From the NCBI RefSeq assembly GCF_016026235.1, contig NZ_CP065613.1: a stretch of 64,000 bases of DNA. One strand, 5' to 3'. Positions within the stretch are counted from its first letter, which is position 1, and each line of letters begins with the position of its first letter. The position numbers and the translations under genes were made by a program. Below the pieces are notes generated by a model. That model was not told the DNA's origin, ran no database searches, and saw nothing but the letters and a program-made list of their open reading frames with translations. Source of the DNA: Escherichia coli. Its GTDB lineage: Bacteria; Pseudomonadota; Gammaproteobacteria; Enterobacterales; Enterobacteriaceae. Shown piece after piece: positions 23,865 through 35,160 of this stretch.

Positions 23865-24620
23865 GTGCGCGCCATGAAATCATTAAGTAAGTCGTCACAA
23901 ATACCGCTCTATCAACAAGTGGTGGAGTGGATAAGAGAAAGTATTTATACCGGAGATCTGGTGGAAGACGATCGCATTCCTTCGGAATACCAGATTATGG
24001 ATATGCTGGAAGTGAGTCGGGGAACCGTTAAAAAAGCGGTCGCCCAACTGGTAAAAGAAGGCGTGTTAATACAGGTCCAGGGTAAGGGAACATTTGTCAA
24101 AAAAGAGAACGTGGCATATCCGTTAGGTGAAGGATTATTGTCATTCGCGGAATCGCTGGAAAGCCAGAAAATACATTTTACCACTGAAGTTATTACGTCA
24201 CGGATTGAACCAGCTAATCGTTATGTGGCAGAGAAATTAAGAATAACTCCCGGTCAGGATATTCTTTACCTTGAACGCTTACGCTCAATTGGTGATGAAA
24301 AAGCGATGCTGATAGAGAACCGTATCAATATTGAGCTATGCCCCGGTATTGCGGAAATCGATTTTAATCAACACAATTTATTTCCAACAATAGAAAGTTT
24401 GTCGCAAAGAAAAATTCGTTACTCGGAAAGTCGCTATGCCGCGCGATTAATTGGTAATGAACGTGGTCATTTTTTAGATATCAGTGAAGACGCACCCGTT
24501 TTGCATCTGGAGCAGTTAGTCTTTTTCTCCCGAGGATTACCCATTGAGTTTGGCAACGTCTGGTTAAAAGGAAATAAATATTATCTTGGCACCGTACTGC
24601 AACGGCGGGAAGTGAGTTAA
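23865..24620 (+). CDS. GntR/HutC-family transcriptional regulator (wHTH + UTRA effector domain)
   Basis: 251 aa; N-terminal IPSEYQIMDMLEVSRGTVKKAVAQLVKEGVLIQVQGKGTFV is a typical GntR HTH; alternative ATG at 23874. Confidence 0.8.
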   Translation: MRAMKSLSKSSQIPLYQQVVEWIRESIYTGDLVEDDRIPSEYQIMDMLEVSRGTVKKAVAQLVKEGVLIQVQGKGTFVKKENVAYPLGEGLLSFAESLESQKIHFTTEVITSRIEPANRYVAEKLRITPGQDILYLERLRSIGDEKAMLIENRINIELCPGIAEIDFNQHNLFPTIESLSQRKIRYSESRYAARLIGNERGHFLDISEDAPVLHLEQLVFFSRGLPIEFGNVWLKGNKYYLGTVLQRREVS

Positions 24621-24644
24621 GTACACTTTTTTAAGAGGAATAAA

Positions 24645-25118
24645 ATGCAAGGCATACATTTTCAGGAAAATTATATTCAACGACTTCCGGCAGGGTTAAG
24701 CGTTGAACAGATCATCCGTCAGTTAGCGCAACCGTTGGTTGCCGCCGAGCTGGTCGTCCCTGATTTTGCCGATCACGTACTGAAACGTGAGGAGACGTAC
24801 CCAACGGGGCTGCCTACCGAACCACCGTGCGTCGCTATTCCGCACACGGACCATAAACATGTCAGGCACAATGCAATTGCCGTCGGCATCCTGCCGGAAC
24901 CGGTAGAGTTTGCCGATATGGGCGGCGATCCTGACCCCGTACCTGTCAGGGTGATTTTTTTGCTCGCCTTAAGCGAAAGTAATAAACAATTAAATGCCCT
25001 GGGCTGGATTATGGAAATGATTCAGGATACGCCCTTTATGCAAGCCCTGCTTGCGATGGAAACAACAGAAATACACACAGTAATCTTAAACAAAATGAAA
25101 GAACGAGGTGAAATATGA
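24645..25118 (+). CDS. PTS EIIA component (EIIA-2, mannitol/fructose/Ntr-type fold)
   Basis: 157 aa; active-site motif VAIPHTD (phosphorylatable His). Confidence 0.8.
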   Translation: MQGIHFQENYIQRLPAGLSVEQIIRQLAQPLVAAELVVPDFADHVLKREETYPTGLPTEPPCVAIPHTDHKHVRHNAIAVGILPEPVEFADMGGDPDPVPVRVIFLLALSESNKQLNALGWIMEMIQDTPFMQALLAMETTEIHTVILNKMKERGEI

Positions 25119-25396
25119 GTCAAACCATTTTATTTGTCTGCGCCACGGGTATTGCCACATCCACGGCGGTAACAGAAAAAGTCATGGAATATTGTAAAGA
25201 GCACGGTCTTAACGTCAATTATTCCCAAACCAACGTTGCCTCTTTACCTGGAAATACTGATGGCGTAGCACTGGTAGTCTCAACGACTAAAGTGCCTTAT
25301 GAACTCGACGTCCCGGTAGTTAACGGCTTGCCGATTATTACCGGTATTGGCGAAGAGAAAGTACTGGCGCAAATTGTTTCGATCCTTAAAAATTAA
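25115..25396 (+). CDS. PTS EIIB component, galactitol (GatB)-type
   Basis: 93 aa MSQTILFVCATGIATSTAVTEK...; N-terminal Cys-containing phosphotransfer motif as in GatB/SgcB. Confidence 0.8.
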   Translation: MSQTILFVCATGIATSTAVTEKVMEYCKEHGLNVNYSQTNVASLPGNTDGVALVVSTTKVPYELDVPVVNGLPIITGIGEEKVLAQIVSILKN

Positions 25397-25472
25397 TTAA
25401 TAATAATTAATTTCAACCCACTCCATCAGGCGCTAACGCGAGGTGCGCTCTCGCCTGAAAAAGAGGTTTATT

Positions 25473-26831
25473 ATGAACGATATCGCGCATACCCTCTATA
25501 ATATTGTGCAATATATATTGGGATTTGGCCCGACGGTAATGTTGCCGTTGGTGTTATTTATTCTTGCTCTCTGTTTTAAAGTAAAACCCGCTAAAGCCTT
25601 ACGTTCGTCATTAACAGTCGGCATTGGTTTTGTCGGTATTTATGCCATTTTCGATATTCTGACCAGCAATGTCGGGCCAGCGGCCCAGGCGATGGTTGAA
25701 CGCACCGGAATTAATTTACCGGTGGTAGATTTAGGCTGGCCGCCGCTTTCCGCTATTACATGGGGTTCGCCAATTGCCCCGTTTGTTATTCCCCTGACCA
25801 TTCTGATTAACGTGGCGATGCTGGCGTTAAATAAAACCCGTACCGTTGACGTAGATATGTGGAACTACTGGCATTTTGCCCTTGCTGGTACGTTGGTTTA
25901 TTACAGCACCGGCAGCCTGTTCTTTGGTTTGCTGGCGGCGGCGATTGCTGCGGTGGTAGTACTTAAACTCGCCGACTGGTCTGCGCCACTGGTACAAAAA
26001 TACTTTGGACTGGAAGGGATCTCATTGCCGACGCTCTCTTCGGTGGTGTTCTTCCCGGTCGGTCTGCTGGTCGACAAAATCATCGACCATATCCCCGGCC
26101 TCAATCGTATTCATATCGACCCGGAAACCGTACAGAAAAAGTTTGGCATCTTCGGCGAACCGATGATGGTTGGCACTATTCTGGGCATACTGCTCGGCGT
26201 GATTGCAGGATACGATTTCAAAAAAGTGTTGCTGCTTGGCATCAGCATTGGCGGTGTGATGTTCATCCTGCCACGCATGGTTCGCATCCTGATGGAAGGT
26301 TTATTACCGCTGTCTGAAGCCATTAAAAAGTATCTCAATGCCAAATACCCTGACCGTGACGATCTCTATATCGGACTGGATATCGCCGTTGCCGTAGGTA
26401 ATCCGGCGATTATCTCCACCGCCCTGCTGCTAACGCCAATCTCGGTCTTTATCGCGTTTGTCCTCCCAGGTAATGAAGTCCTGCCGCTTGGCGACCTTGC
26501 CAACCTGGCGGTAATGGCGTCGATGATTGCTTTAGCCAGCCGTGGCAATATTTTCCGCACCGTTCTGGCGGCGATCCCGGTGATTATTGCCGACCTGTGG
26601 ATTGCGACTAAAATCGCACCGTTTATTACCGGCATGGCGAAAGACGTTAACTTCAAATTTGCCGAAGGCTCCAGCGGCCAGGTTTCCAGTTTCCTTGATG
26701 GCGGTAACCCGTTCCGCTTCTGGCTGCTGGAAATCTTCAACGGCAATATCATCGCCATTGGTCTGGTGCCGGTTATCGCCCTGGTACTGTATGGCATTTT
26801 CCGAATGACGCGGAGCACGGTTTATGCCTGA
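25473..26831 (+). CDS. PTS EIIC permease, galactitol (GatC) family
   Basis: ORF 25443..26831; start placed at ATG 25473 after AAAGAGG RBS; motifs LGFGPTVMLP, GIGFVGI, GPAAQAM, DLGWP, IPGLNRI, KFGIFGEP, LPLGDLA, GNIFRT align to GatC as I recall it. Confidence 0.85.
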   Translation: MNDIAHTLYNIVQYILGFGPTVMLPLVLFILALCFKVKPAKALRSSLTVGIGFVGIYAIFDILTSNVGPAAQAMVERTGINLPVVDLGWPPLSAITWGSPIAPFVIPLTILINVAMLALNKTRTVDVDMWNYWHFALAGTLVYYSTGSLFFGLLAAAIAAVVVLKLADWSAPLVQKYFGLEGISLPTLSSVVFFPVGLLVDKIIDHIPGLNRIHIDPETVQKKFGIFGEPMMVGTILGILLGVIAGYDFKKVLLLGISIGGVMFILPRMVRILMEGLLPLSEAIKKYLNAKYPDRDDLYIGLDIAVAVGNPAIISTALLLTPISVFIAFVLPGNEVLPLGDLANLAVMASMIALASRGNIFRTVLAAIPVIIADLWIATKIAPFITGMAKDVNFKFAEGSSGQVSSFLDGGNPFRFWLLEIFNGNIIAIGLVPVIALVLYGIFRMTRSTVYA

Positions 26832-28332
26832 TAACAGCGCAGCTATCGTTATCGATATTGGCACCACCAATTGCAAAGTCACCTGCTTTTCCTGCCTGGA
26901 CGCAACGACGTTGGGCGCGCATAAATTCGTGACGGCAAAGCAGATCTCCCCACAGGGCGATGTCGATTTCGATATCGACGCCCTCTGGCAGGAGGTCCGC
27001 CAGGCGATAGCGCAACTGAACGCCGCTTCGCCGCTGCCAGTCAGACGGATCAGCATTGCCAGTTTTGGCGAATCAGGCGTGTTCCTTGACGAGCATGGCG
27101 AGATCCTGACGCCAATGCTGGCATGGTATGACCGTCGCGGTGAAGAGTATCTGGCAACGCTTAGCGAGGCAGACAGTGCGGCACTTTATGACATCTGCGG
27201 TCTACCACTACACAGCAATTACTCTGCCTTCAAAATGCGCTGGTTGCTGGAACATTACCCGCTGCGTAATCGCCGCGGCCTGCGCTGGCTACATGCGCCG
27301 GAAGTGCTGCTCTGGCGGCTGACTGGCGAACAGCGCACGGATATCACCTTAGCCAGCCGCACGCTGTGTCTGGACGTGCGCAAAGGCGAATGGTCAGCGA
27401 AAGCGGCGGCGTTGTTACACGTTCCCTGTACGGCATTTGCGCCATTGGTGCAGCCAGGCGAGCACGCCGGATGGGTCAGCGAGTCACTTTGCAAGACGCT
27501 TGGGTTCTCGCAACCGGTCAGCGTGACGCTGGCCGGACATGACCATATGGTGGGTGCGCGAGCGTTGCAGATGATGCCAGGCGATATCCTTAACTCGACG
27601 GGGACCACGGAAGGCATTCTGCAACTGGATACACAACCGACGCTGGATGAACAGGCCAAACGTGACAAGCTGGCAAACGGCTGTTACTCACTTGCCAACC
27701 AGTTCACCCTGTTTGCGTCGCTGCCCGTGGGCGGTTTCGCGCTGGAGTGGCTGCGCAACACGTTCCGGCTAACCGATGAGGAGATCGCCGCATCACTTAC
27801 TCGCGGACATGCTGATTATCTGGCGGGGAATTGGTTGCTCGATGACATTCCCGTCTTTATTCCACATCTTCGCGGTTCGGGTTCGCCCTATAAAAATCGC
27901 CATACCCGTGGATTATTTTATGGGCTTGGCGATACGTTAAGTATCGACATGTTAATTGCCAGCGTATCACTGGGATTAACCATGGAATTTGCCAACTGCT
28001 TCGCCTGTTTTAACGTGCCTGGCACCAGCGCGTTAAAAGTGATCGGTCCGGCAACCCATAATCCTCTTTGGCTGCAATTAAAGGCGGATATTTTACAGCG
28101 TCCGGTTGAAGCAATTGCATTTAACGAGGCGGTTTCTGTCGGAGCATTATTAACCGCCGCACCGGATATTCCACCGCCGCCAGTCGCTATAGCCCAACGT
28201 TTGTTACCGAATCGGGCGAGATACCATCAATTACAGCGTTATCAGCACAAATGGAAAAGCTGGTATCAGTTGAAATTACAACAAGAAGGCGTGATGCCAT
28301 TACATCATCGGGAGGAACACTATGTTGAATAA
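26824..28332 (+). CDS. FGGY-family carbohydrate kinase (substrate unknown)
   Basis: 502 aa; N-terminal AIVIDIGTTNCK, FGGY signature-1-like YSAFKMRWLLEH, C-terminal GTSALKVIGP; 8-nt overlap with EIIC gene. Confidence 0.75.
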   Translation: MPDNSAAIVIDIGTTNCKVTCFSCLDATTLGAHKFVTAKQISPQGDVDFDIDALWQEVRQAIAQLNAASPLPVRRISIASFGESGVFLDEHGEILTPMLAWYDRRGEEYLATLSEADSAALYDICGLPLHSNYSAFKMRWLLEHYPLRNRRGLRWLHAPEVLLWRLTGEQRTDITLASRTLCLDVRKGEWSAKAAALLHVPCTAFAPLVQPGEHAGWVSESLCKTLGFSQPVSVTLAGHDHMVGARALQMMPGDILNSTGTTEGILQLDTQPTLDEQAKRDKLANGCYSLANQFTLFASLPVGGFALEWLRNTFRLTDEEIAASLTRGHADYLAGNWLLDDIPVFIPHLRGSGSPYKNRHTRGLFYGLGDTLSIDMLIASVSLGLTMEFANCFACFNVPGTSALKVIGPATHNPLWLQLKADILQRPVEAIAFNEAVSVGALLTAAPDIPPPPVAIAQRLLPNRARYHQLQRYQHKWKSWYQLKLQQEGVMPLHHREEHYVE

Positions 28333-28591
28333 AACCGTGGAGGTCAGAAACAGTACTGGCCTGCATGCACGTCCGGCGGCCTGTCTGGCGAAAGCCGCCA
28401 AAAAATATAGCTGTAAAGTGACGCTGCACTATGAGGGTAATGATATTAATGCCACCAGCATGATGAATATTATGCGCGCCGGAATAAAAGGCGGAAAAAC
28501 GGTGGAAATACGCTGCGACGGTGATGATGAAAACGAGGCCATACAGACTCTCACCGACTTATTTCGCGACCGCTTCGGTGAAGCTGAATAA
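28322..28591 (+). CDS. HPr-family phosphocarrier protein (operon-specific paralog)
   Basis: 89 aa MLNKTVEVRNSTGLHARPAACLAKAAKKY...; His-15 motif GLHARPA. Confidence 0.8.
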   Translation: MLNKTVEVRNSTGLHARPAACLAKAAKKYSCKVTLHYEGNDINATSMMNIMRAGIKGGKTVEIRCDGDDENEAIQTLTDLFRDRFGEAE

Positions 28592-28622
28592 TTAACTGAT
28601 ATTAAAAGATGAGGTTTTCAAT

Positions 28623-29483
28623 ATGCCATTAGTTAATGGACGGATACTGCTCGACCGCATTCAGGAAAAACGGGTATTAGCGGGCGCATTTAATACCACC
28701 AATCTGGAGACGACAATTTCAATTTTAAACGCTATTGAGCGTTCGGGATTACCCAACTTCATTCAGATTGCGCCAACCAATGCACAACTCTCGGGATACG
28801 ATTACATTTATGAAATCGTGAAACGTCACGCCGATAAAATGGATGTTCCGGTCAGTCTTCATCTGGATCACGGGAAAACTCAGGAGGATGTGAAACAGGC
28901 GGTGCGCGCGGGCTTTACCTCGGTCATGATTGACGGTGCCGCATTCTCTTTTGAAGAGAATATCGCTTTCACCCAGGAAGCTGTCGATTTCTGTAAATCC
29001 TATGGTGTACCGGTTGAAGCGGAGCTGGGGGCGATTCTCGGCAAAGAAGATGATCACGTCAGCGAAGCCGATTGCAAAACGGAACCGGAAAAGGTGAAGA
29101 CCTTTGTCGAGCGTACCGGTTGCGACATGCTGGCAGTTTCTATTGGCAACGTTCATGGCCTGGACGATATACCGCGTATCGATATCCCCCTGCTGAAGCG
29201 CATTGCCGAAGTCTGTCCGGTGCCGTTGGTTATTCACGGCGGCTCCGGTATCGCCCCGGAGATATTACGCAGCTTTGTTAATTATCGCGTCGCTAAAGTA
29301 AATATCGCCAGCGATCTGCGCAAAGCGTTTATCACCGCCGTCGGCAAAGCGTATGTGAATAATCACAACGAGGCGAATCTGGCACGAGTCATGGCATCAG
29401 CAAAAAACGCCGTCGAGGAAGATGTGTATAGCAAAATCCTGATGATGAATGAGGGGCATCGGTTGGTTAGAAAGGCATCTTAA
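28623..29483 (+). CDS. Class II ketose-bisphosphate aldolase (GatY/KbaY/FbaA family)
   Basis: 286 aa; metal-binding motifs LHLDHG and IHGGSG. Confidence 0.85.
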   Translation: MPLVNGRILLDRIQEKRVLAGAFNTTNLETTISILNAIERSGLPNFIQIAPTNAQLSGYDYIYEIVKRHADKMDVPVSLHLDHGKTQEDVKQAVRAGFTSVMIDGAAFSFEENIAFTQEAVDFCKSYGVPVEAELGAILGKEDDHVSEADCKTEPEKVKTFVERTGCDMLAVSIGNVHGLDDIPRIDIPLLKRIAEVCPVPLVIHGGSGIAPEILRSFVNYRVAKVNIASDLRKAFITAVGKAYVNNHNEANLARVMASAKNAVEEDVYSKILMMNEGHRLVRKAS

Positions 29484-29495
29484 GAGCCACAAAAA

Positions 29496-29530
29496 TATAG
29501 CGGCGCAACAGAAATTGTTGGGCCGCTATA
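29496..29530. terminator. Hairpin terminator between convergent aldolase and hicB-like genes
   Basis: TATAGCGGC-gCAACAgaaatTGTTGg-GCCGCTATA, 9-bp outer stem with nested inner palindrome. Confidence 0.6.
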
Positions 29531-29532
29531 AG

Positions 29533-29892
29533 TTATAAATGATTCAAACGCTCATTCAGTGTTTCAATAATATAGGTATTAACAGAGACTTGTTGCTGCG
29601 CAGCCGCATTATTAAGGCGTTCACTCAGCGATTCTGGATAGCGTAACGTAAAGGTCTTAATCTTTTCTGTACGCGCATACGGCTCAATACCCGCAGCTTT
29701 ACAATCCTCAAGATACTCTAGCAGGGAAAGTTCCCCTTCTTTTTGCAGCCCCTGAATGCTGTCAGAGACAAAATCACAATAACCTGACAAGCCCAGGAAT
29801 TTGCCACGAAATGCATTCAGTTCTGGCACGTAAGTGATAACAGCAGGTTGCCCGGCAATCTCCATTGAGTTTGGCGTCTTCAGTTTGATCAT
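29533..29892 (-). CDS. HicB-like antitoxin (C-terminal ribbon-helix-helix-like DNA-binding tail)
   Basis: 119 aa MIKLKTPNSMEIAGQPAVITYVPELNAFRGKFLGLSGYCDF...RYPESLSERLNNAAAQQQVSVNTYIIETLNERL; 4-bp overlap with upstream small ORF. Confidence 0.6.
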   Translation of the reverse strand: MIKLKTPNSMEIAGQPAVITYVPELNAFRGKFLGLSGYCDFVSDSIQGLQKEGELSLLEYLEDCKAAGIEPYARTEKIKTFTLRYPESLSERLNNAAAQQQVSVNTYIIETLNERLNHL

Positions 29893-30164
29893 GGTTTTAC
29901 CCCTATACTTAGTAACCAGTCACGCACGCTTTCTACAGCGCCTTTATCGGTATCTGGCGACGGATGAGGCCGATGGAAACACGCAACGCTCATATTTAGT
30001 ATGAACTTACAACGCGAACCTCTTCCTTCCTTAATTTCTCCGCCTAATGCTTTAACCTGTGACTCTATATCAGACCACTTGATCCCTTGAGGAACAGGAG
30101 TTTTAAATATTTGATCCAATGTATTTTTTTGTTTCTTCCGTAAAGCCTGTACCTTGGTTCTCAT
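29889..30164 (-). CDS. HicA-like mRNA-interferase toxin
   Basis: 91 aa; ...WSDIESQVKALGGE...GSRCKF...HRPHP...AVESVRDWLLSIGV resembles HicA (W-x-ES...GS...PRHP...) pattern; upstream of and overlapping the HicB-like gene. Confidence 0.55.
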   Translation of the reverse strand: MRTKVQALRKKQKNTLDQIFKTPVPQGIKWSDIESQVKALGGEIKEGRGSRCKFILNMSVACFHRPHPSPDTDKGAVESVRDWLLSIGVKP

Positions 30165-30176
30165 GGCATGTCCTTA

Positions 30177-30224
30177 TGACTTCACTTTATGACATCAATA
30201 GTATGACATCACAGTATGAAGTCA
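30177..30224 (-). promoter_or_regulatory. Candidate promoter/operator of the hicAB-like pair: 8-bp inverted repeat flanking two TATGACATCA direct repeats
   Basis: TGACTTCActtTATGACATCAatagTATGACATCAcagtaTGAAGTCA, immediately upstream of the toxin start codon. Confidence 0.4.
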
Positions 30225-30236
30225 AGTTTCCCTTCC

Positions 30237-31364
30237 TTACGCCATTGTCCCAATCGTCTTCCTGAATCGCAGCAGTGCGATGGTGAAAAACGCGCCGCCA
30301 ATTGCCATCAGCGTCAGGAACTGCGGCCAGACGATTTCGAATCCGGCACCCCGGTAGAGAATGGCCTGCGCGAGGCTAACAAAGTGTGTCGTCGGCATGG
30401 TCAGCATAATGTCCTGCACCATCTGCGGCATACTTTCGCGCGGCGTGGATCCACCGGAAAGCATTTGCAGCGGCAGCAGCACCAGAATCACCAGCAGCCC
30501 CAGTTGCGGCATTGAACGCGCTATCGTCCCCATAAAAATGCCGATTGACGTGGTGGCAAACAGACTGAGCGCCACGCCCAGCATAAACAGCGGGATCGAG
30601 CCTTCAATCGGTACGCCCAGCACGCCTTTCACCATCAGCACCAGCGATAATCCCGATACCACCAGCACCACTAGCCCCATCGACCAGACCTTCGCCATCA
30701 TGATCTCAAACGGCGTTATCGGCATCACCAGTAAGTGTTCCACCGTGCCGTGTTCACGCTCGCGGATCAGCGCCGATCCGGTCAATACAATCGCCAGCAT
30801 GGTAATGTTGTTGATGATTGCCATCACCCCGCCAAACCACGCGGGGTCGAGGTTCGGGTTAAAGCGCATCCGGGTTTCCAGCGATACCAACGGTTCGCTG
30901 TTATCACGGTAGCGCGCGACAAAGCTGTTCACTTCACCGTTGATAATATTCTGGATATACCCGTTGCCGGTAAATGCCTGGCTCATGCGCGTGGCATCGA
31001 CGTTCACCTGAATATCCGGCTGGCGTCCGGCGAGGACATCACGCTGAAAATTAGGCGGAATATTTATCGCAAAGGTATAGCGTCCGGCGTCCAGTCCGGC
31101 ATCCATCTCATCGGCGGTGATCATCTCCGGTGGCAAAAACCACGGGCGATAGAAGCTGTTAACGATCCGGTTCGATAACTGCGATTGATCCATATCGGCA
31201 ATGGCGATCGGCGCGAGGTTCAACGATCCTGGCGTGACGGTCGCTGACGAATACACCGACACCGTAAACGAGAAGACAATCAGCGTTAGCATCGCTTTAT
31301 CACCGAGCAGACTGCGCAACTCTTTGATACCCAGATTAAAAATATTGCGTAAATGGCGCATCAT
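30237..31364 (-). CDS. yhhJ: ABC-2 type transporter permease YhhJ
   Basis: ORF 30237..31445; start placed at tandem ATG ATG (31364/31361) directly after GGAGGG and overlapping rbbA stop; [26 protein letters not shown]... Confidence 0.88.
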
Positions 31365-34096
31365 CCCTCCTGTTTTTTCAGCAGCAGGATGCTTAAGCCC
31401 ATCACCAGCGGTATGGCTATCAGCAACGGGATAAAAAGTTGCCATAAATCAGTCAGATCCAACGCTTTCGAGAACGTTCCGCGGGCGATAGTCAGAAAAT
31501 GACTGGTCGGGTAAACCTCGCCGATCCAACGTCCCGGCCCTTCCAGCGAAGCTACCGGATCGATCATCCCGGAAAACTGTGTCGCCGGGATCAACGTGAT
31601 AATCGCCGTACCGAAAATGGCGGCAATCTGGCTTTTCATAAAGGTGGAGATCAGCAGCCCCATTACGGTGGCGATGATGATATACAGCAGCGCCGCCAGG
31701 GTGAGCGTCAGGAAACTGCCTTTATGCGGCACGCCAAACACAAACACCGACAGGCCACAGAGCAGGAAAAAGTTCAGCATCCCCAGCGCGATGTACGGCA
31801 GCTGTTTGCCAAGCAAAAATTCGCTACGCGTGGTGGGAGTCACGTAAAGGTTGATAATCGACCCAAGCTCTTTTTCCCGCACCACGCTAAGGGCGCTTAG
31901 CATTGACGGGATCATCATCAGCAGAAGCGGGATCACCGCCGGAACAATCGCTGGCAGGCTTTTTACGTCCGGGTTATAACGATAGCGTGTCTCAATATTC
32001 ATCAGCCCGCTTTGGCTGGCGGGCGTGGATTGTCGGCTCGCCACATCCTGAAGCCAGCTCTGGTGCATGGCCTGCACGTAACCTTTTACCGTTTCGGCAC
32101 GACTCGGCATTGCACCGTCGATCCAGACGCCGAGTTCCACGGGCGTACCACGCGCGATATCGCGCCCGAAATTGGGTGGGATCTCAATTGCCACCGTGAT
32201 ATCGCCCGCACGCATCCGACGATCAAGCTCGTCATAACTGGTGAGCGGCGGCTGTTCGATAAAGTAACGGGAACCAGAGAGATTGAGCGTCCACGCCTGG
32301 CTACTGACGGTCTGGTCGCGGTCGAGCACCGCAAAGCGCAGGTTTTCCACATCCATACTGATGCCGTAGCCCATTATCAGCATCAGGATCACCGTTCCCA
32401 TCAGCGCCAGCGTCGAACGCACCGGATCGCGGCGCAGTTCCAGTGCTTCGCGGCGGCTGTAGCTAAACAGACGGCGCAGGCTAAATCCCTGACGCGGCGC
32501 ATGGGTGGTGTCATGTACCACGGGCGGCGCTTCGGCTTCGTTGCTCTGCCCTGCCGCCTCCTGTAAATAGGCGATAAATGCCTCTTCCAGACTGGCGGCT
32601 CCGCGTTTCTCAACCAGTTCCTGCGGTGTACCGCTGGCGAGCACTTTTCCGGCGTGCATCAGTGAGATACGGTCACAACGTTCCGCTTCGTTCATAAAGT
32701 GGGTGGAGATGAAGATAGTCACTTTGTCCTGACGCGAGAGATCGACCATCAACTGCCAGAACATATCCCTCGCCACCGGATCGACGCCAGAAGTAGGTTC
32801 ATCGAGGATTAACATCTCCGGGCGATGAATCACCGCCACCGCCAGCGAAAGCCGCTGGCGAATGCCGAGCGGCAATGACTCCGGCAGAACATCTTCAACG
32901 TCGTTGAGTTTAAAACGCTCGCTCATTTCAGCCACTCGCGCGGGAATTTCCGCTTCCGGGATGTGAAACAAACGGGCATGTAACTCAAGGTTTTGCCGCA
33001 CGGTGAGTTCGTTATAGAGCGAAAACGCCTGCGACATATAGCCCACCCGACGGCGGGTATCGATATCTTTTGGATCAACCGGTTGCCCGAACAGCCACGC
33101 CTCACCTTCGCTGGCGGGCAGCAGTCCGGTGAGCATTTTCATGGTGGTGGATTTACCGCAGCCGTTCGAACCAAGAAAACCAAAAATCTCCCCGCGTGGA
33201 ATGCGGAAATTAACGTGATCAACGGCAACGAAGGAACCAAAACGCATGGTCAGATCGCGCGCTTCGATGGCAATCTCTGCGTTTTCAGGTTGATACGGTG
33301 GGATCACTACCGCCTGATGCGCCTGGCGTTGCGCTTGCGGTAACAGATTTATAAATGCTTCTTCCAGCGTGGCGCTTTGCGTTTGCTGCCGCATCTCTTC
33401 GGCGCTGCCAGTTGCCAACACTTCTCCGGCATTCATCGCCACCAACCAGTCGAAGCGTTCCGCCTCTTCCATATAGGCCGTGGCGACCAGAACGCTCATA
33501 TTGCTCTGCCGCTGGCGAATACTGTCGATCAGATCCCAGAACTGGGCGCGGGAGAGCGGGTCAACCCCCGTCGTAGGCTCATCAAGAATCAACAGTTCCG
33601 GGTCGTGGATTAACGCACAGCACAGCCCCAGTTTTTGCTTCATCCCGCCGGAGAGTTTCCCTGCCGGACGATCGCGAAACGGTGCTAACCCGGTGCTGGT
33701 CAGCAGCTCATTAATTCGCACTTCCCGCTCCGCTTTGTCGTGACCGAACAGGCGAGCGAAAAAATCGACATTTTCATACACCGATAAGGTGTGGTAGAGA
33801 TTTTTGCCCAGCCCCTGCGGCATCCAGGCGATGCGCGGGCAGACGTCGCGGCGATGCTTCGGGTCGCGCATATCGCCGCCCAGCACCATCACGTTGCCCT
33901 GCTCAATGACACGAGCACCGGAAATCAATGACAATAAACTCGACTTACCGACGCCGTCCGGGCCAATCAGCCCGACCATGCAGCGGGCCGGAATCTCGAG
34001 AGTGATATTGTTCAGCGCAACGGTTTTTCCATAATGCTGGCTCACGCCCGCCAGTTGCGCGACAGGCGGGACGGGAACCAGTTCCAGATGCGTCAT
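31361..34096 (-). CDS. rbbA: Ribosome-associated ATPase RbbA (tandem ABC ATPase domains fused to ABC-2 permease)
   Basis: 911 aa; two Walker A sites ([18 protein letters not shown]) and two LSGG signatures, C-terminal TM region. Confidence 0.93.
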
Positions 34097-35160
34097 TGCG
34101 GCAACCTCACCACCAGGTCTTCAGGCCACGGAAGTTCTTCATTCACCCGCACCCACGCTACGCCCGGCAAGCCCGTTTTGACATATTCCAGATGCTGCTG
34201 GAGTAATTCCGGTGGGATACGCGCTTTGACGCGGAACATCAGTTTCAGCCGTTCATCGCTGGTTTCGACAGTTTTTGGCGTGAACTGGGCGACGCTGGCG
34301 ACAAAACTGATGGTCGCAGGAATACGCAGATCTGGCGCGGCATCGAGGATCAGCCGGGCTTCACCGCCAAGTTTCAGCGTGCCCGCCTGTTCGGTTGGCA
34401 GGAAGAAAGTCATATAGACGTCGCTGAGATCGACCATATTCAGCACCCGACCGCCTGCCGCCAGCACTTCCCCTGGCTCGGCAACCCGATACTGCACGCG
34501 TCCGTCACGCGGGGCTTTCAGTTCGCTGTCATCGATATCTGCGGCAATGCGCCGTTCAGTGGCTTGTGCCGCTTCGACGCGGGTTTGCGCCTGAATGATA
34601 TTGGTGCGTGCCGCCTCTATAGCGGCTTTAGAAGCAGAAACCTGAGCTTTTGCCGATTCCAGCGCCGCTCGGGCGCTCTCAGCGGCGGCGCGATCGTCAT
34701 CCAGCTGTTGCGCAGAAATAGCCCCTCGTTGGGCGAGCGAGCGGGAACGCGTATGACGTTTGGCAACGGAGTCCAGTTCGGCCTGGCGTTGATTGACCAG
34801 CGACTGTGCGGCACGAGTTTCACTTTGTCGTTGCTCCAGCAAAGCCTGCGCGGCGGCAACGGCGCTTTGTGCCTCTTTGATTTGCGCGATGGCTTCCAGT
34901 CGCTGTTCCTGCAACACGCGAGTATCCATCTTCGCCAGCACTTCGCCTTCGCGAACAAACTGGCCTTCTTTCACCAGAATGGTGTCGATACGCCCGGCAA
35001 TTTTGCTGGCGATATCCACTTCCGTCGCTTCAATGCGCCCATTGCTGACAGCAAAGCCTTCCGGCACGCCCGCCGGGCGCAACAGCCACCACGCCACGAC
35101 GGCAGCCACCGCCAGTGCCCCGACAACCCACCACGCCAGATGGCGCTTACTCTTATCCAT
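34093..35160 (-). CDS. yhiI: HlyD-family membrane fusion protein YhiI
   Basis: 355 aa; N-terminal TM segment, long coiled-coil (AQ-rich), C-terminal beta-barrel region. Confidence 0.9.

What the first reader, a model, noticed from the sequence alone, without database searches (positions are those of the whole stretch)
30237..35160. yhiI–rbbA–yhhJ: translationally coupled MFP / double-ATPase-permease fusion / ABC-2 permease operon
The three genes overlap (yhiI–rbbA by 4 nt; rbbA stop overlaps tandem ATG ATG of yhhJ with GGAGGG abutting). RbbA fuses two ABC ATPase domains to a permease and is followed by a separate permease, with an HlyD-type adaptor — an efflux-like architecture whose substrate is, to my knowledge, unknown. 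Worth noting because the accessory hicAB/PTS island abuts its 3' end.
Basis: partly seen in the sequence, partly recalled or inferred. Interest (0 to 1): 0.3.

Follow-up and report, generated by a model that had tools for sequence, protein, structure and literature searches.

The report
Known three-gene ABC efflux-pump operon
This is the already-annotated E. coli core operon yhiI-rbbA-yhhJ, which by every sequence test looks like an ATP-driven export pump spanning the cell envelope; its cargo is still unknown, and the popular label of RbbA as a "ribosome ATPase" fits its sequence poorly.

Summary
On the minus strand, yhiI (35160..34093), rbbA (34096..31361) and yhhJ (31361..30237) overlap as ATGA and TGATG. 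The operon is annotated in RefSeq and occurs in 5413 of 5426 complete E. coli genomes, so it is already known.

- It is colinear with the paralogous pump ybhGFSR.
- The MFP / NBD-NBD-TMD fusion / TMD order is kept in all 79 orthologous loci where all three genes could be checked. These span Proteobacteria, Verrucomicrobia and Planctomycetes, with RbbA 65-70% identical.
- The 4-nt yhiI/rbbA overlap is kept in 64 of 80 operons.
- In 20 loci a TolC-family gene sits directly upstream.
- The YhiI model resembles EmrA and carries an invariant R-x3-L-x6-S hairpin tip.
- The RbbA membrane domain is ABCH/ABCA-like, and its two ATP sites are invariantly asymmetric.
- RbbA lacks the ABC-F linker.

The conserved yhhJ start is the second ATG. 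The operon really begins upstream, with a promoter, the translated uORF yhiY and a conserved structured leader where published data show Rho-dependent termination.

The substrate remains unknown. The hicAB/PTS island at the 3' end is accessory. Interest is low to moderate.

The parts
35494..35521 (-). Sigma-70-type promoter of the operon (TAGACA-16 nt-TACTAT with TG), directly after the yhiJ stop. The transcript start is probably near 35487.
   Evidence: Consensus scan. The same ATAGACA...GTTAGTAT block is conserved in E. coli L003, E. albertii, Citrobacter and Pseudocitrobacter. The forward cloning primer for the yhiI 5' UTR in Adams et al. starts GAGACTGTTGATAAAACG, which is window 35487 onward.
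35316..35373 (-). 58-nt leader block, nearly invariant across Escherichia, Citrobacter and Pseudocitrobacter. It holds two overlapping small-ORF starts (ATGAGTATG and ATGATG) and the 5' arm (35367..35356) of a long-range helix.
   Evidence: Alignments A4, A5 and A8; pair counts.
35223..35336 (-). yhiY, a 37-aa upstream ORF (MMTTLLPVFTKPS...FLLIPDGRIR) ending in UGA. It contains the only C>G (rut-like) stretch of the leader, at about 35347..35248.
   Evidence: Annotated in RefSeq. Translation shown by ribosome profiling of initiation complexes. Listed as a uORF with a 3' end less than 200 nt downstream. C-G skew. C-terminal FLLIP[DE]G..R* conserved in three genera.
35209..35229 (-). Conserved 9-bp hairpin (CCGCUGAAC-guc-GUUCGGCGG) that contains the yhiY stop codon. 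Published Term-seq 3' ends map to 35225 and 35203.
   Evidence: 3 of its pairs show compensatory changes. 3' ends at -65 and -43 from the yhiI start, the latter scored Rho-dependent and labelled uORF.
35193..35204 (-). 3' arm (UGUAACACGCGU) of the long-range helix that pairs with 35367..35356 and encloses the whole uORF.
   Evidence: RNAalifold consensus. Helix 1 is 98% paired, with the pair at alignment columns 8/206 seen as UA, UG and CG.
34093..35160 (-). yhiI: periplasmic adaptor (membrane fusion protein). It has an N-terminal TM helix, a long alpha-hairpin with an R138-x3-L142-x6-S149 tip, and no membrane-proximal domain.
   Evidence: Pfam; NCBIfam RND_mfp above cut-off; 30% identity to YbhG; AlphaFold pLDDT 91; best PDB match is EmrA of EmrAB-TolC; tip motif conservation.
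34093..34096 (-). ATGA overlap of the yhiI stop and the rbbA start.
   Evidence: Conserved as A/GTGA in 64 of 80 operons.
31361..34096 (-). rbbA (formerly yhiH): NBD1 (about 13-252), 22-aa linker, NBD2 (about 275-515), disordered tether, then an ABC-2 membrane domain (TM1 540-576, periplasmic domain about 586-706, TM2-6 714-905).
   Evidence: Pfam; NCBIfam equivalog NF033858 at 1593 bits against a cut-off of 1050; equals YbhF plus YbhS; motif table; AlphaFold pLDDT 83; Foldseek top hit ABCH-9C.
31359..31371 (-). rbbA/yhhJ junction: AGGAGG (31371..31366) inside the last rbbA codons, rbbA stop TGA (31363..31361), and yhhJ start ATG (31361..31359).
   Evidence: The RbbA C-terminal KKQE (AAnCAGGAG) is conserved in most of the 80 operons, placing an SD-like motif before the permease start.
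30237..31361 (-). yhhJ: second ABC-2 permease, partner of the RbbA membrane domain.
   Evidence: Pfam. Reciprocal best paralog of YbhR: 114 bits against 84 for YbhS. 28% identical to the RbbA TMD.
29533..30225 (-). hicA (30164..29889) and hicB (29892..29533), with their own promoter starting 12 nt after the yhhJ stop. This is an accessory module, not part of the pump. No terminator separates it from yhhJ.
   Evidence: Pfam HicA_toxin/HicB; promoter scan; variable presence; hairpin terminator only after hicB at 29496..29530.

Best explanation
yhiI-rbbA-yhhJ encodes an ATP-driven exporter of the ABC-2 (type V) class that works with a periplasmic adaptor.

Proposed assembly. RbbA supplies both ATPase domains and one membrane domain, and YhhJ supplies the second membrane domain. 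Together they make one asymmetric full transporter, with one degenerate and one catalytic ATP site. YhiI is anchored by one TM helix. It forms a long alpha-hairpin tube whose conserved RLS tip docks an outer-membrane channel: TolC in E. coli, or a dedicated NodT/TolC-family protein encoded in the operon in other bacteria. Cargo taken from the inner membrane or periplasm would then be expelled across the outer membrane.

Proposed expression control. Overlapping stop/start codons couple translation so that the three subunits are made together. Expression is gated upstream by the yhiY uORF leader, where Rho terminates most transcripts.

What is shown and what is inferred. Shown: domain content, paralogy, conservation of order and overlaps, OMF linkage in other taxa, motif states, structural resemblance, and published Rho dependence. 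Inferred: the actual assembly with TolC, the direction of transport and the cargo. The cargo is most likely a hydrophobic or lipid-like molecule or xenobiotic, by analogy with YbhGFSR and ABCH/ABCA.
For: - Domains: Pfam and NCBIfam assignments.
- Paralogy: gene-by-gene colinear with ybhG-ybhF-ybhS-ybhR. YhiI~YbhG 30%; RbbA NBD1/NBD2~YbhF 40/42%; RbbA TMD~YbhS 164 bits against 115 for YbhR; YhhJ~YbhR 114 bits against 84 for YbhS. YbhGFSR has reported tetracycline, cefoperazone and dye efflux, and YbhG is destabilised in a tolC knockout.
- Conservation: all 79 loci in which all three genes could be checked keep MFP, then the NBD-NBD-TMD fusion, then the TMD, with RbbA 65-70% identical across phyla.
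- Outer-membrane partner: a Pfam OEP (TolC/NodT) gene lies directly upstream in 20 loci, overlapping the MFP start in 11 of them.
- Junctions: overlaps are conserved.
- Adaptor: the YhiI model (pLDDT 91) best matches EmrA in EmrAB-TolC at E 2.5e-22. Its hairpin tip has R138 and L142 invariant in 63/63 sequences and S149 in 48/63.
- Transporter fold: the RbbA model's best PDB match is the ceramide exporter ABCH-9C over NBD+TMD, and its NBDs are nearest ABCA3/4/1 by sequence.
- ATP sites: invariant asymmetry in 80/80 orthologs. NBD1 has A207 in place of the H-loop His, and NBD2 has an LPLG signature. The NBD1 signature LSGGM and NBD2 H466 are canonical.
- Localisation: full-length RbbA-mCherry is membrane-distributed.
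- Regulation: Rho-dependent termination in the leader and ORF.
Against: - No substrate, MIC change or transport phenotype was found in the searchable literature.
- The E. coli operon has no outer-membrane gene, and no interaction of YhiI with TolC is reported.
- Truncated, TMD-less RbbA changes in vitro translation yields 1.3-2.1 fold, so a second, ribosome-related activity is not excluded.
- The structure models are predictions of single chains, not of the complex.
Confidence: 0.8

Rival explanations
1. RbbA is primarily a ribosome-bound elongation-type ATPase, as its name implies. It would bind the 30S/E-site and eject deacyl-tRNA, and the membrane domain and neighbouring genes would be secondary.
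For: The older biochemical literature is summarised. Truncated RbbA raised yields of some non-standard peptides 1.3-2.1 fold in a reconstituted system and competed with EttA/Uup. A GWAS linked rbbA SNPs to microcin C resistance.
Against: - Only a TMD-less fragment was ever used, because the full-length protein is unstable.
- The main in vivo paper was retracted in 2025 for image concerns.
- The inter-NBD linker is about 22 aa and poorly conserved, and there was no PF12848 (ABC-F linker) hit.
- The NBDs are DrrA/ABCA-like, not ABC-F-like.
- The TMD, the YhhJ partner and the adaptor are kept in all 79 loci where all three could be checked.
- One ATP site is degenerate, as in heterodimeric exporters.
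- The full-length fusion protein is membrane-located.
Confidence: 0.08
2. The pump is an inner-membrane-only ABC-2 exporter or flippase, for example for a lipid-linked or envelope component. YhiI would act only as a periplasmic scaffold, and no outer-membrane duct would be involved in E. coli.
For: There is no OMF gene in the Enterobacterales operons. Type V relatives (ABCA, ABCH, Wzm, TarG) move lipids or glycolipids without a duct (plus general knowledge).
Against: OMF genes are fused into the same operon in 20 distant loci. The invariant R-x3-L-x6-S tip and the EmrA-like long hairpin are the parts adaptors use to contact TolC-type channels (the role of that motif is from my knowledge of the MacA/AcrA literature, not tested here). 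The paralog adaptor YbhG depends on TolC for stability.
Confidence: 0.1
3. The gene overlaps are only compact packing with no regulatory meaning, and each gene is translated independently.
For: 4-nt and 1-nt overlaps are the commonest junctions in bacterial operons generally (general knowledge). An SD-like AGGAG precedes yhhJ, so independent initiation is possible.
Against: The ATGA/GTGA junction survives in 64 of 80 operons despite 30-45% protein divergence of the adaptor. The SD for the permease is embedded in conserved terminal codons of RbbA. Subunits of one complex are expected in fixed ratios.
Confidence: 0.25

Closest known systems
YbhGFSR (E. coli cecR-ybhGFSR operon)
   Same: Same gene order and homologous proteins throughout: HlyD adaptor, tandem-NBD ATPase and two different ABC-2 permeases. 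It shares the same ATP-site asymmetry (YbhF has STSY in NBD1 and LPLGFKQ in NBD2) and the same RLS hairpin tip in the adaptor.
   Different: In YbhGFSR the ATPase and the first permease are separate genes; here they are fused into RbbA. YbhGFSR has a TetR regulator (CecR); here there is a uORF/Rho leader instead. YbhGFSR has reported drug substrates and TolC-dependent stability; none are reported here.
MacAB-TolC (ABC-type tripartite efflux pump)
   Same: ATP-driven inner-membrane ABC transporter with a large periplasmic domain, plus a hexamer-forming adaptor with an alpha-hairpin, plus TolC. MacA is among the structural matches of YhiI.
   Different: MacB has the FtsX-type four-helix membrane domain (type VII) and is a homodimer. 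RbbA/YhhJ have ABC2_membrane domains (type V) and are a heterodimer with fused tandem NBDs.
EmrA of EmrAB-TolC
   Same: Best structural and sequence match of YhiI: N-terminal TM anchor, long hairpin and no membrane-proximal domain.
   Different: EmrA serves an MFS proton antiporter, not an ABC transporter. Sequence identity is only 18%.
Type V ABC exporters with extracellular domains (insect ABCH-9C; human ABCA1/3/4/7)
   Same: NBD placed before the TMD, an ABC-2 membrane fold, and a folded domain between TM1 and TM2. ABCH-9C is the top Foldseek hit and the ABCA proteins are the top sequence hits. These are lipid exporters.
   Different: They are eukaryotic, have no adaptor or outer-membrane duct, and have a different subunit arrangement.
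ABC-F translation factors (EttA, Uup, YbiT, YheS)
   Same: Two NBDs in one polypeptide. Soluble RbbA fragments behave somewhat like them in vitro.
   Different: ABC-F proteins have no membrane domain and have a long helical inter-NBD linker that reaches the peptidyl-transferase centre. RbbA has a TMD and a 22-aa linker.
uORF-dependent Rho attenuators (mdtU-mdtJI; tnaC-tnaAB)
   Same: A short translated uORF ahead of a transporter or enzyme operon, a Rho-dependent 3' end just downstream, and a conserved uORF C-terminus.
   Different: For yhiY no inducer, stalling or mutational test exists. Citrobacter reaches the same stop codon from a different start and frame.

Membership tests
RbbA equivalog (NCBIfam NF033858, ABC2_perm_RbbA) | Full-length match above the curated cut-off | tested here: met
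   1593.6 bits against a cut-off of 1050, covering residues 12-910.
ABC-2 / type V ABC exporter | Membrane domain of the ABC2_membrane families, with the NBD N-terminal to the TMD | tested here: met
   PF12698, PF01061 and PF12679 match both the RbbA C-terminal region and YhhJ. Foldseek's best hit is ABCH-9C over NBD+TMD.
ABC-2 / type V ABC exporter | Two functional nucleotide-binding sites, or one consensus plus one degenerate site, with Walker A/B intact | tested here: met
   Walker A, Walker B D-E, Q-loop and D-loop are invariant in both NBDs. Site 1 is degenerate (A207; LPLG) and site 2 is consensus, in 80/80 orthologs.
Tripartite (adaptor-dependent) efflux pump | Periplasmic adaptor (MFP/PAP) encoded with the transporter | tested here: met
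   YhiI has HlyD_3/HlyD_D23 and RND_mfp above cut-off. It is adjacent in all 79 loci where it could be checked.
Tripartite (adaptor-dependent) efflux pump | Adaptor hairpin able to dock a TolC-type channel (long alpha-hairpin, conserved R-x3-L-x6-S tip) | tested here: met
   Helices 81-144 and 150-211 in the model. R138 and L142 are invariant and S149 is present in 48/63 sequences. The meaning of the motif is from prior knowledge of MacA/AcrA.
Tripartite (adaptor-dependent) efflux pump | Outer-membrane factor partner | tested here: inconclusive
   None in the E. coli operon. An OEP-family gene lies directly upstream in 20 distant orthologous loci. A physical link to TolC is not testable here.
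Tripartite (adaptor-dependent) efflux pump | Demonstrated export of a substrate | not testable with these tools
   No report found.
MacB / type VII ABC family | FtsX-type four-helix membrane domain | tested here: not met
   There was no FtsX/MacB_PCD Pfam hit; only ABC2_membrane families matched.
ABC-F ribosome-binding ATPases | No transmembrane domain | tested here: not met
   A six-helix TMD is predicted and conserved in all orthologs.
ABC-F ribosome-binding ATPases | Long helical inter-NBD linker (PtIM; Pfam ABC_tran_Xtn PF12848) | tested here: not met
   The linker is about 22 aa with 0.58 mean conservation, and there was no PF12848 hit.
Translationally coupled operon | Stop/start overlap conserved among orthologs | tested here: met
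   64 of 80 operons have a -4 overlap and 5 have -1 at junction 1. 73 of 80 lie within -4..+3 at junction 2.
Translationally coupled operon | Downstream translation depends on upstream translation | not testable with these tools
   Needs reporter fusions or ribosome profiling.
uORF-dependent Rho attenuator | Translated uORF plus a Rho-dependent 3' end in the leader | tested here: met
   From the literature only: yhiY translation; the reporter is more than 2-fold up in rho R66S; a 3' end at -43 is flagged Rho-dependent/uORF.
uORF-dependent Rho attenuator | Regulation depends on uORF translation or peptide, and on a signal | not tested
   Only comparative hints: a conserved C-terminus, stop codon and hairpin.

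The most novel reading that the evidence does not exclude
The yhiY leader may be a signal-sensing attenuator. In this reading a ribosome pausing or terminating at the conserved FLLIP(D/E)G..R-UGA end, inside a conserved hairpin and just after the leader's only C-rich rut-like stretch, decides whether Rho stops transcription. That switch would turn on a very widely conserved type V ABC/adaptor/TolC pump whose real cargo is an endogenous lipid-like or envelope molecule rather than drugs. On this view the 'ribosome-bound ATPase' activity of RbbA is a property of the isolated soluble ATPase fragment, not its cellular job.
Probability: 0.25. Interest if true: 0.55.

Novelty: already known. Interest (0 to 1): 0.25.

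Why it matters
The operon is one of the few E. coli core-genome transporters with no known cargo. One subunit also carries a function name (ribosome-associated ATPase) whose main in vivo support has been retracted. The comparative evidence gathered here argues that annotation and experiments should treat it as an envelope-spanning exporter: universal linkage to a permease and an adaptor, TolC-family genes in the operon in other phyla, and the absence of ABC-F features. The conserved uORF/Rho leader explains why the pump is silent in the laboratory. It also offers a practical handle for finding the inducing condition and hence the substrate, for example leader-reporter screens or leader deletion to force expression.

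Tried and rejected
- Rfam scan of 29400..35700 at E<=1 found no known RNA family in the leader or elsewhere.
- Single-sequence folding of the leader was not better than shuffles (z = 0.40). Only the comparative analysis supports structure.
- The protein database search with RbbA was swamped by near-identical E. coli entries and gave no diversity. The genome scan replaced it.
- Genes downstream of yhhJ in 71 loci share nothing, so there is no substrate clue from neighbours. Upstream genes other than OMF are mostly unrelated; TetR occurs in only 4 of 39.
- PDB sequence searches found no solved structure of RbbA, YhhJ or YhiI.
- The riboswitch-entropy paper that lists the operon refers to a window several kb away, not to this leader.
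- Transcriptome and GWAS mentions (butanol, ciprofloxacin heteroresistance, paraquat deletion, carbonate screen, microcin C) give no causal phenotype.
- The 1285/1286-aa 'RbbA-YhhJ fusion' proteins in the database are frameshift variants that read the open yhhJ frame upstream of its start. They are not a distinct natural architecture.
- No intrinsic terminator was found between yhhJ and hicA.

Full report
**1. Observation**

The window is Escherichia coli chromosome. The 6.2 kb around the finding is 100% identical to strain FDAARGOS_943 and about 98% identical to essentially all other complete genomes. It is present in 5413 of 5426 genomes.

On the minus strand lie yhiI (35160..34093, 355 aa), rbbA (34096..31361, 911 aa) and yhhJ (31361..30237, 374 aa).

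- The yhiI/rbbA junction reads ccgcaATGAcg, a 4-nt overlap.
- The rbbA/yhhJ junction reads caGGAGGGATGATGcgc, with the rbbA stop TGA at 31363..31361.
- RefSeq uses the second ATG (31361) for yhhJ.
- Pfam confirms an HlyD-type adaptor, a protein with two ABC_tran domains followed by ABC2_membrane_3, and a lone ABC2_membrane_3 permease.

**2. Is it more than chance? Comparative anatomy**

One scan of a one-genome-per-species collection returned 80 loci. These come from Enterobacterales, other Gamma-, Alpha-, Beta- and Deltaproteobacteria, Verrucomicrobia and Phycisphaerales.

- All 79 loci in which all three genes could be checked have the same order: adaptor, NBD-NBD-TMD fusion, second permease.
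- Outside the Enterobacterales, RbbA is still 65-70% identical, the adaptor 52-63% and YhhJ 58-70%.
- In 80 operons (79 loci plus the window), the adaptor/ABC junction is a 4-nt ATGA/GTGA overlap in 64 and a 1-nt overlap in 5.
- The ABC/permease junction lies between -4 and +3 nt in 73.
- The last codons of RbbA (K-K-Q-E, AAnCAGGAG) are conserved in most. They place an AGGAG about 5-9 nt before the permease start.
- In Escherichia, AGGAGG sits 4 nt before ATG2 and only 1 nt before ATG1. Citrobacter has GTGATG. The conserved start is therefore ATG2, and the 'tandem ATG' is a local accident.

Conserved overlaps are what translational coupling predicts. Coupling itself was not tested.

**3. What the proteins are**

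*Paralogy with ybhGFSR.* The operon is a gene-for-gene paralog of ybhG-ybhF-ybhS-ybhR.

| This operon | ybhGFSR counterpart | Match |
|---|---|---|
| YhiI | YbhG | 30% identity |
| RbbA 1-515 | YbhF | NBD1 40%, NBD2 42% identity |
| RbbA 539-911 | YbhS | 164 bits (115 against YbhR) |
| YhhJ | YbhR | 114 bits (84 against YbhS) |

RbbA is therefore a YbhF-YbhS fusion, and the two permeases were already different before the operon duplicated.

*RbbA family and nearest relatives.*
- NCBIfam places RbbA in its own equivalog, at 1593 bits against a cut-off of 1050.
- The next best ATPase models are DrrA and NodI.
- The nearest solved sequences are the NBDs of ABCA3/4/1 and the membrane domain of an insect ABCH protein.
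- No structure of any of the three proteins is deposited.

*RbbA model.* An AlphaFold model built on 67 orthologs has pLDDT 83. It shows NBD1 (13-252), a short linker, NBD2 (275-515), a disordered tether, TM1, a folded periplasmic domain (about 586-706) and five more helices. Its best PDB match is the ceramide exporter ABCH-9C across NBD+TMD.

*ATP-site asymmetry.* A motif table over 80 orthologs shows an invariant asymmetry.
- Both Walker A and Walker B motifs, including the catalytic Glu, are intact.
- NBD1 has Ala207 where the H-loop His should be.
- NBD2 has LPLG instead of the LSGG signature.
- The NBD1 signature (LSGGM) and the NBD2 His466 are canonical.

ATP sites are composite, so this gives one degenerate and one consensus site, as in many heterodimeric exporters. 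YbhF shares the pattern.

**4. The adaptor and the outer membrane**

The YhiI model has pLDDT 91. It shows an N-terminal TM helix, lipoyl and beta-barrel domains, a hairpin of two helices of about 62 residues each (81-144 and 150-211), and no membrane-proximal domain. Its best structural matches are EmrA chains in the EmrAB-TolC cryo-EM structure (E 2.5e-22), followed by MacA.

The hairpin tip carries R138-x3-L142-x6-S149. R and L are invariant in 63/63 sequences, including YbhG. From my knowledge of the MacA/AcrA literature, this is the motif that contacts the TolC aperture.

Most tellingly, the gene directly upstream of the adaptor is a Pfam OEP (TolC/NodT family) protein with a lipobox in 20 distant loci. 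These include Methylobacter, Nitrosomonas, Ralstonia, Comamonas, Herbaspirillum, Azoarcus, Phenylobacterium, deltaproteobacterial MAGs, Verrucomicrobiaceae and Phycisphaerales. In 11 of them its stop overlaps the adaptor start.

The ancestral or alternative form of the module is therefore a four-gene OMF-adaptor-ABC-permease operon. Enterobacterales lack the OMF gene and would be expected to borrow TolC. The same is inferred for the paralog, whose adaptor YbhG is destabilised in a tolC knockout.

Genes downstream of yhhJ share nothing across 71 loci. Only 4 of 39 other upstream neighbours are TetR regulators. The neighbourhood therefore gives no substrate clue.

**5. The ribosome story**

RbbA is named for a ribosome-bound ATPase activity.

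- In the searchable literature, only a TMD-less fragment has been used, because the full-length protein is unstable. In 2025 that fragment changed yields of non-standard peptides 1.3-2.1 fold in a reconstituted system.
- The 2011 paper on in vivo interactions and phenotypes was retracted in June 2025 for image concerns.
- Full-length RbbA-mCherry is spread over the membrane.
- Sequence tests for ABC-F membership fail. A conserved TMD is present, the inter-NBD linker is about 22 poorly conserved residues, and the ABC-F linker family PF12848 is not detected.

I therefore rate a primary translation role as unlikely (about 0.08), though a side activity of the soluble ATPase is not excluded.

**6. 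The operon starts upstream of the reported coordinates**

RefSeq annotates a 37-codon gene, yhiY (35336..35223), between yhiJ and yhiI.

*Published evidence.*
- Its translation was shown by initiation-complex ribosome profiling.
- Adams et al. (eLife 2021) found that a yhiI 5' UTR+ORF reporter rises more than 2-fold in a rho R66S mutant. They list yhiY-yhiI among uORFs with a 3' end less than 200 nt downstream.
- Their tables give 3' ends at -65 and -43 from the yhiI start. The -43 end is flagged Rho-dependent and labelled uORF.
- They also give a bicyclomycin-sensitive site inside yhiI.
- In window coordinates these are 35225, 35203 and about 34613.

*Promoter.* A promoter-like site (TAGACA-16-TACTAT with TG, 35521..35494) lies just after the yhiJ stop. 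It matches the start of their cloned 5' UTR.

*New comparative analysis.* I compared the leader across Escherichia, Citrobacter, Pseudocitrobacter and 17 metagenome contigs. It shows five features.
- (i) A 58-nt block (35373..35316) that is nearly invariant.
- (ii) A middle part that varies in sequence and in length, by about 24 nt.
- (iii) A conserved TTCCTTCTyATCCCGGAkGGAA that encodes FLLIP(D/E)G.
- (iv) A 9-bp hairpin (35229..35209) that contains the uORF stop UGA.
- (v) A conserved 3' segment (35204..35193) complementary to 35367..35356. Together these form a long-range helix that encloses the uORF.

On 16 distinct sequences, 96.8% of pair cells are standard pairs, against 34-42% when the partners are slid. 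Five pairs show compensatory changes, and the covariation score exceeds all 500 shuffles. Two caveats apply: the structure was derived from these sequences, and few independent lineages are involved.

An ORF always reaches the same UGA. It uses the ATGATG frame in Escherichia, Pseudocitrobacter and contig L088 (37-45 codons), but the ATGAGTATG frame in Citrobacter (57 codons). One contig (L087) breaks both frames. Kluyvera lacks the 3' half, and Providencia and Proteus lack the leader entirely.

The only C>G stretch of the leader lies inside yhiY, at about 35347..35248. That fits a rut site that translating ribosomes would mask. No Rfam family matches.

This supports, but does not prove, a uORF-dependent Rho attenuator of the mdtU or tnaC kind. 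No inducer is known.

**7. The 3' neighbour**

hicA (30164..29889) and hicB (29892..29533) have their own promoter, which begins 12 nt after the yhhJ stop. They are followed by a class II aldolase, an HPr, an FGGY kinase and PTS IIC/IIB/IIA genes on the other strand, then nikR.

The species-representative E. coli (L003) and Citrobacter have nikR immediately after yhhJ. From my own knowledge, K-12 has rhsB there instead.

Within E. coli, 3130 of 5426 genomes have some part of the island and 1631 have at least 80% of it. hicAB and the PTS cluster occur independently of each other.

The island has nothing to do with the pump.

**8. Mechanism, committed**

- *Most likely (0.8).* A type V ABC exporter, RbbA+YhhJ, with one catalytic ATP site. 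It is bridged by a YhiI hairpin tube to TolC and made in fixed ratios through coupled translation. It is normally kept off by Rho termination in the yhiY leader.
- *Cargo.* Unknown. By analogy with YbhGFSR (tetracyclines, cefoperazone and dyes) and with ABCH/ABCA lipid exporters, I expect a hydrophobic or amphipathic molecule taken from the membrane or periplasm. The very high conservation across phyla, and the lack of linked biosynthetic genes, lean toward a common endogenous or environmental lipid-like compound rather than a lineage-specific product.
- *Shown.* Sequence anatomy, conservation, OMF linkage and structural resemblance are shown here. Rho dependence and uORF translation are published.
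- *Inferred.* Assembly, direction of transport, TolC use and cargo.

**9. Novelty and score**

The operon, its architecture and its unknown substrate are already in public annotation, so the finding as written is 'already known'.

The details added here are incremental:
- OMF-containing orthologous operons
- invariant ATP-site asymmetry
- the conserved RLS tip
- failure of the ABC-F tests
- conservation and structure of the yhiY leader

They do sharpen a small open question, namely what RbbA really does, and they make it experimentally tractable. Interest is 0.25.

Noticed in passing
It comprises a promoter, the annotated and translated 37-aa uORF yhiY, a conserved hairpin holding its UGA stop, and a long-range helix. 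Published Rho-dependent 3' ends map to 35225 and 35203. The leader is conserved in Escherichia, Citrobacter and Pseudocitrobacter, has compensatory base changes, and has no Rfam match.
   Followed up: yes
window 35382-35493 (minus strand): This window and about 79% of E. coli genomes (4282 of 5412, K-12 type included) carry roughly 100 extra nt between the conserved promoter and the conserved leader block. E. coli L003, E. albertii, Citrobacter and Pseudocitrobacter do not. The origin and effect on the 5' UTR are unknown.
   Followed up: partly
RbbA residues 207 and 409-410 (window about 33478-33476 and 32872-32867): Invariant asymmetry of the two ATP sites across 80 orthologs and the paralog YbhF. 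NBD1 lacks the H-loop histidine (Ala), and NBD2 has LPLG instead of the LSGG signature.
   Followed up: yes
window 31361-31445; proteins P0001, P0004, P0007: The yhhJ reading frame is open for 28 codons upstream of its start. Public databases hold 1285/1286-aa 'RbbA-YhhJ fusion' proteins that arise from single-base indels near the end of rbbA, for example in the A6 run. It was not determined whether these are sequencing errors or real variants.
   Followed up: partly
window 30170-30225 (minus strand): The hicA promoter region contains four evenly spaced TGAnnTCA half-palindromes (TGACTTCA, TGATGTCA, TGATGTCA, TGAAGTCA) overlapping the -35 and -10 elements. These are plausibly HicB operator sites.
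   Followed up: no
window 29496-29530 and 30165-30236: There is no terminator-like hairpin between yhhJ and hicA. The first strong hairpin (15-nt arms, 93% complementary) comes after hicB, facing the convergent aldolase gene. Read-through from the pump operon into hicAB is therefore possible.
   Followed up: no
window about 23900-29480 (plus strand): In the RefSeq annotation of the identical strain, the PTS/sugar island next to hicAB has a GntR regulator with an internal stop and a frameshifted galactitol-type IIC gene. The island may therefore be decaying in this lineage. hicAB and the PTS cluster occur independently of each other among E. coli genomes.
   Followed up: partly
window 35526-39104 (minus strand): Two paralogous DUF4049 genes (yhiJ, 540 aa, and a 564-aa yhiL-like gene that also has DUF6860) lie in a block of 34-39% GC immediately upstream of the operon promoter. 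The flanks are 52-60% GC, so this looks like a horizontally acquired segment.
   Followed up: no
window 29400-35600: This stretch is 100% identical to one genome (FDAARGOS_943) but only about 98% identical to the other 5412 E. coli genomes. This suggests the window comes from a lineage that is divergent at this locus.
   Followed up: no
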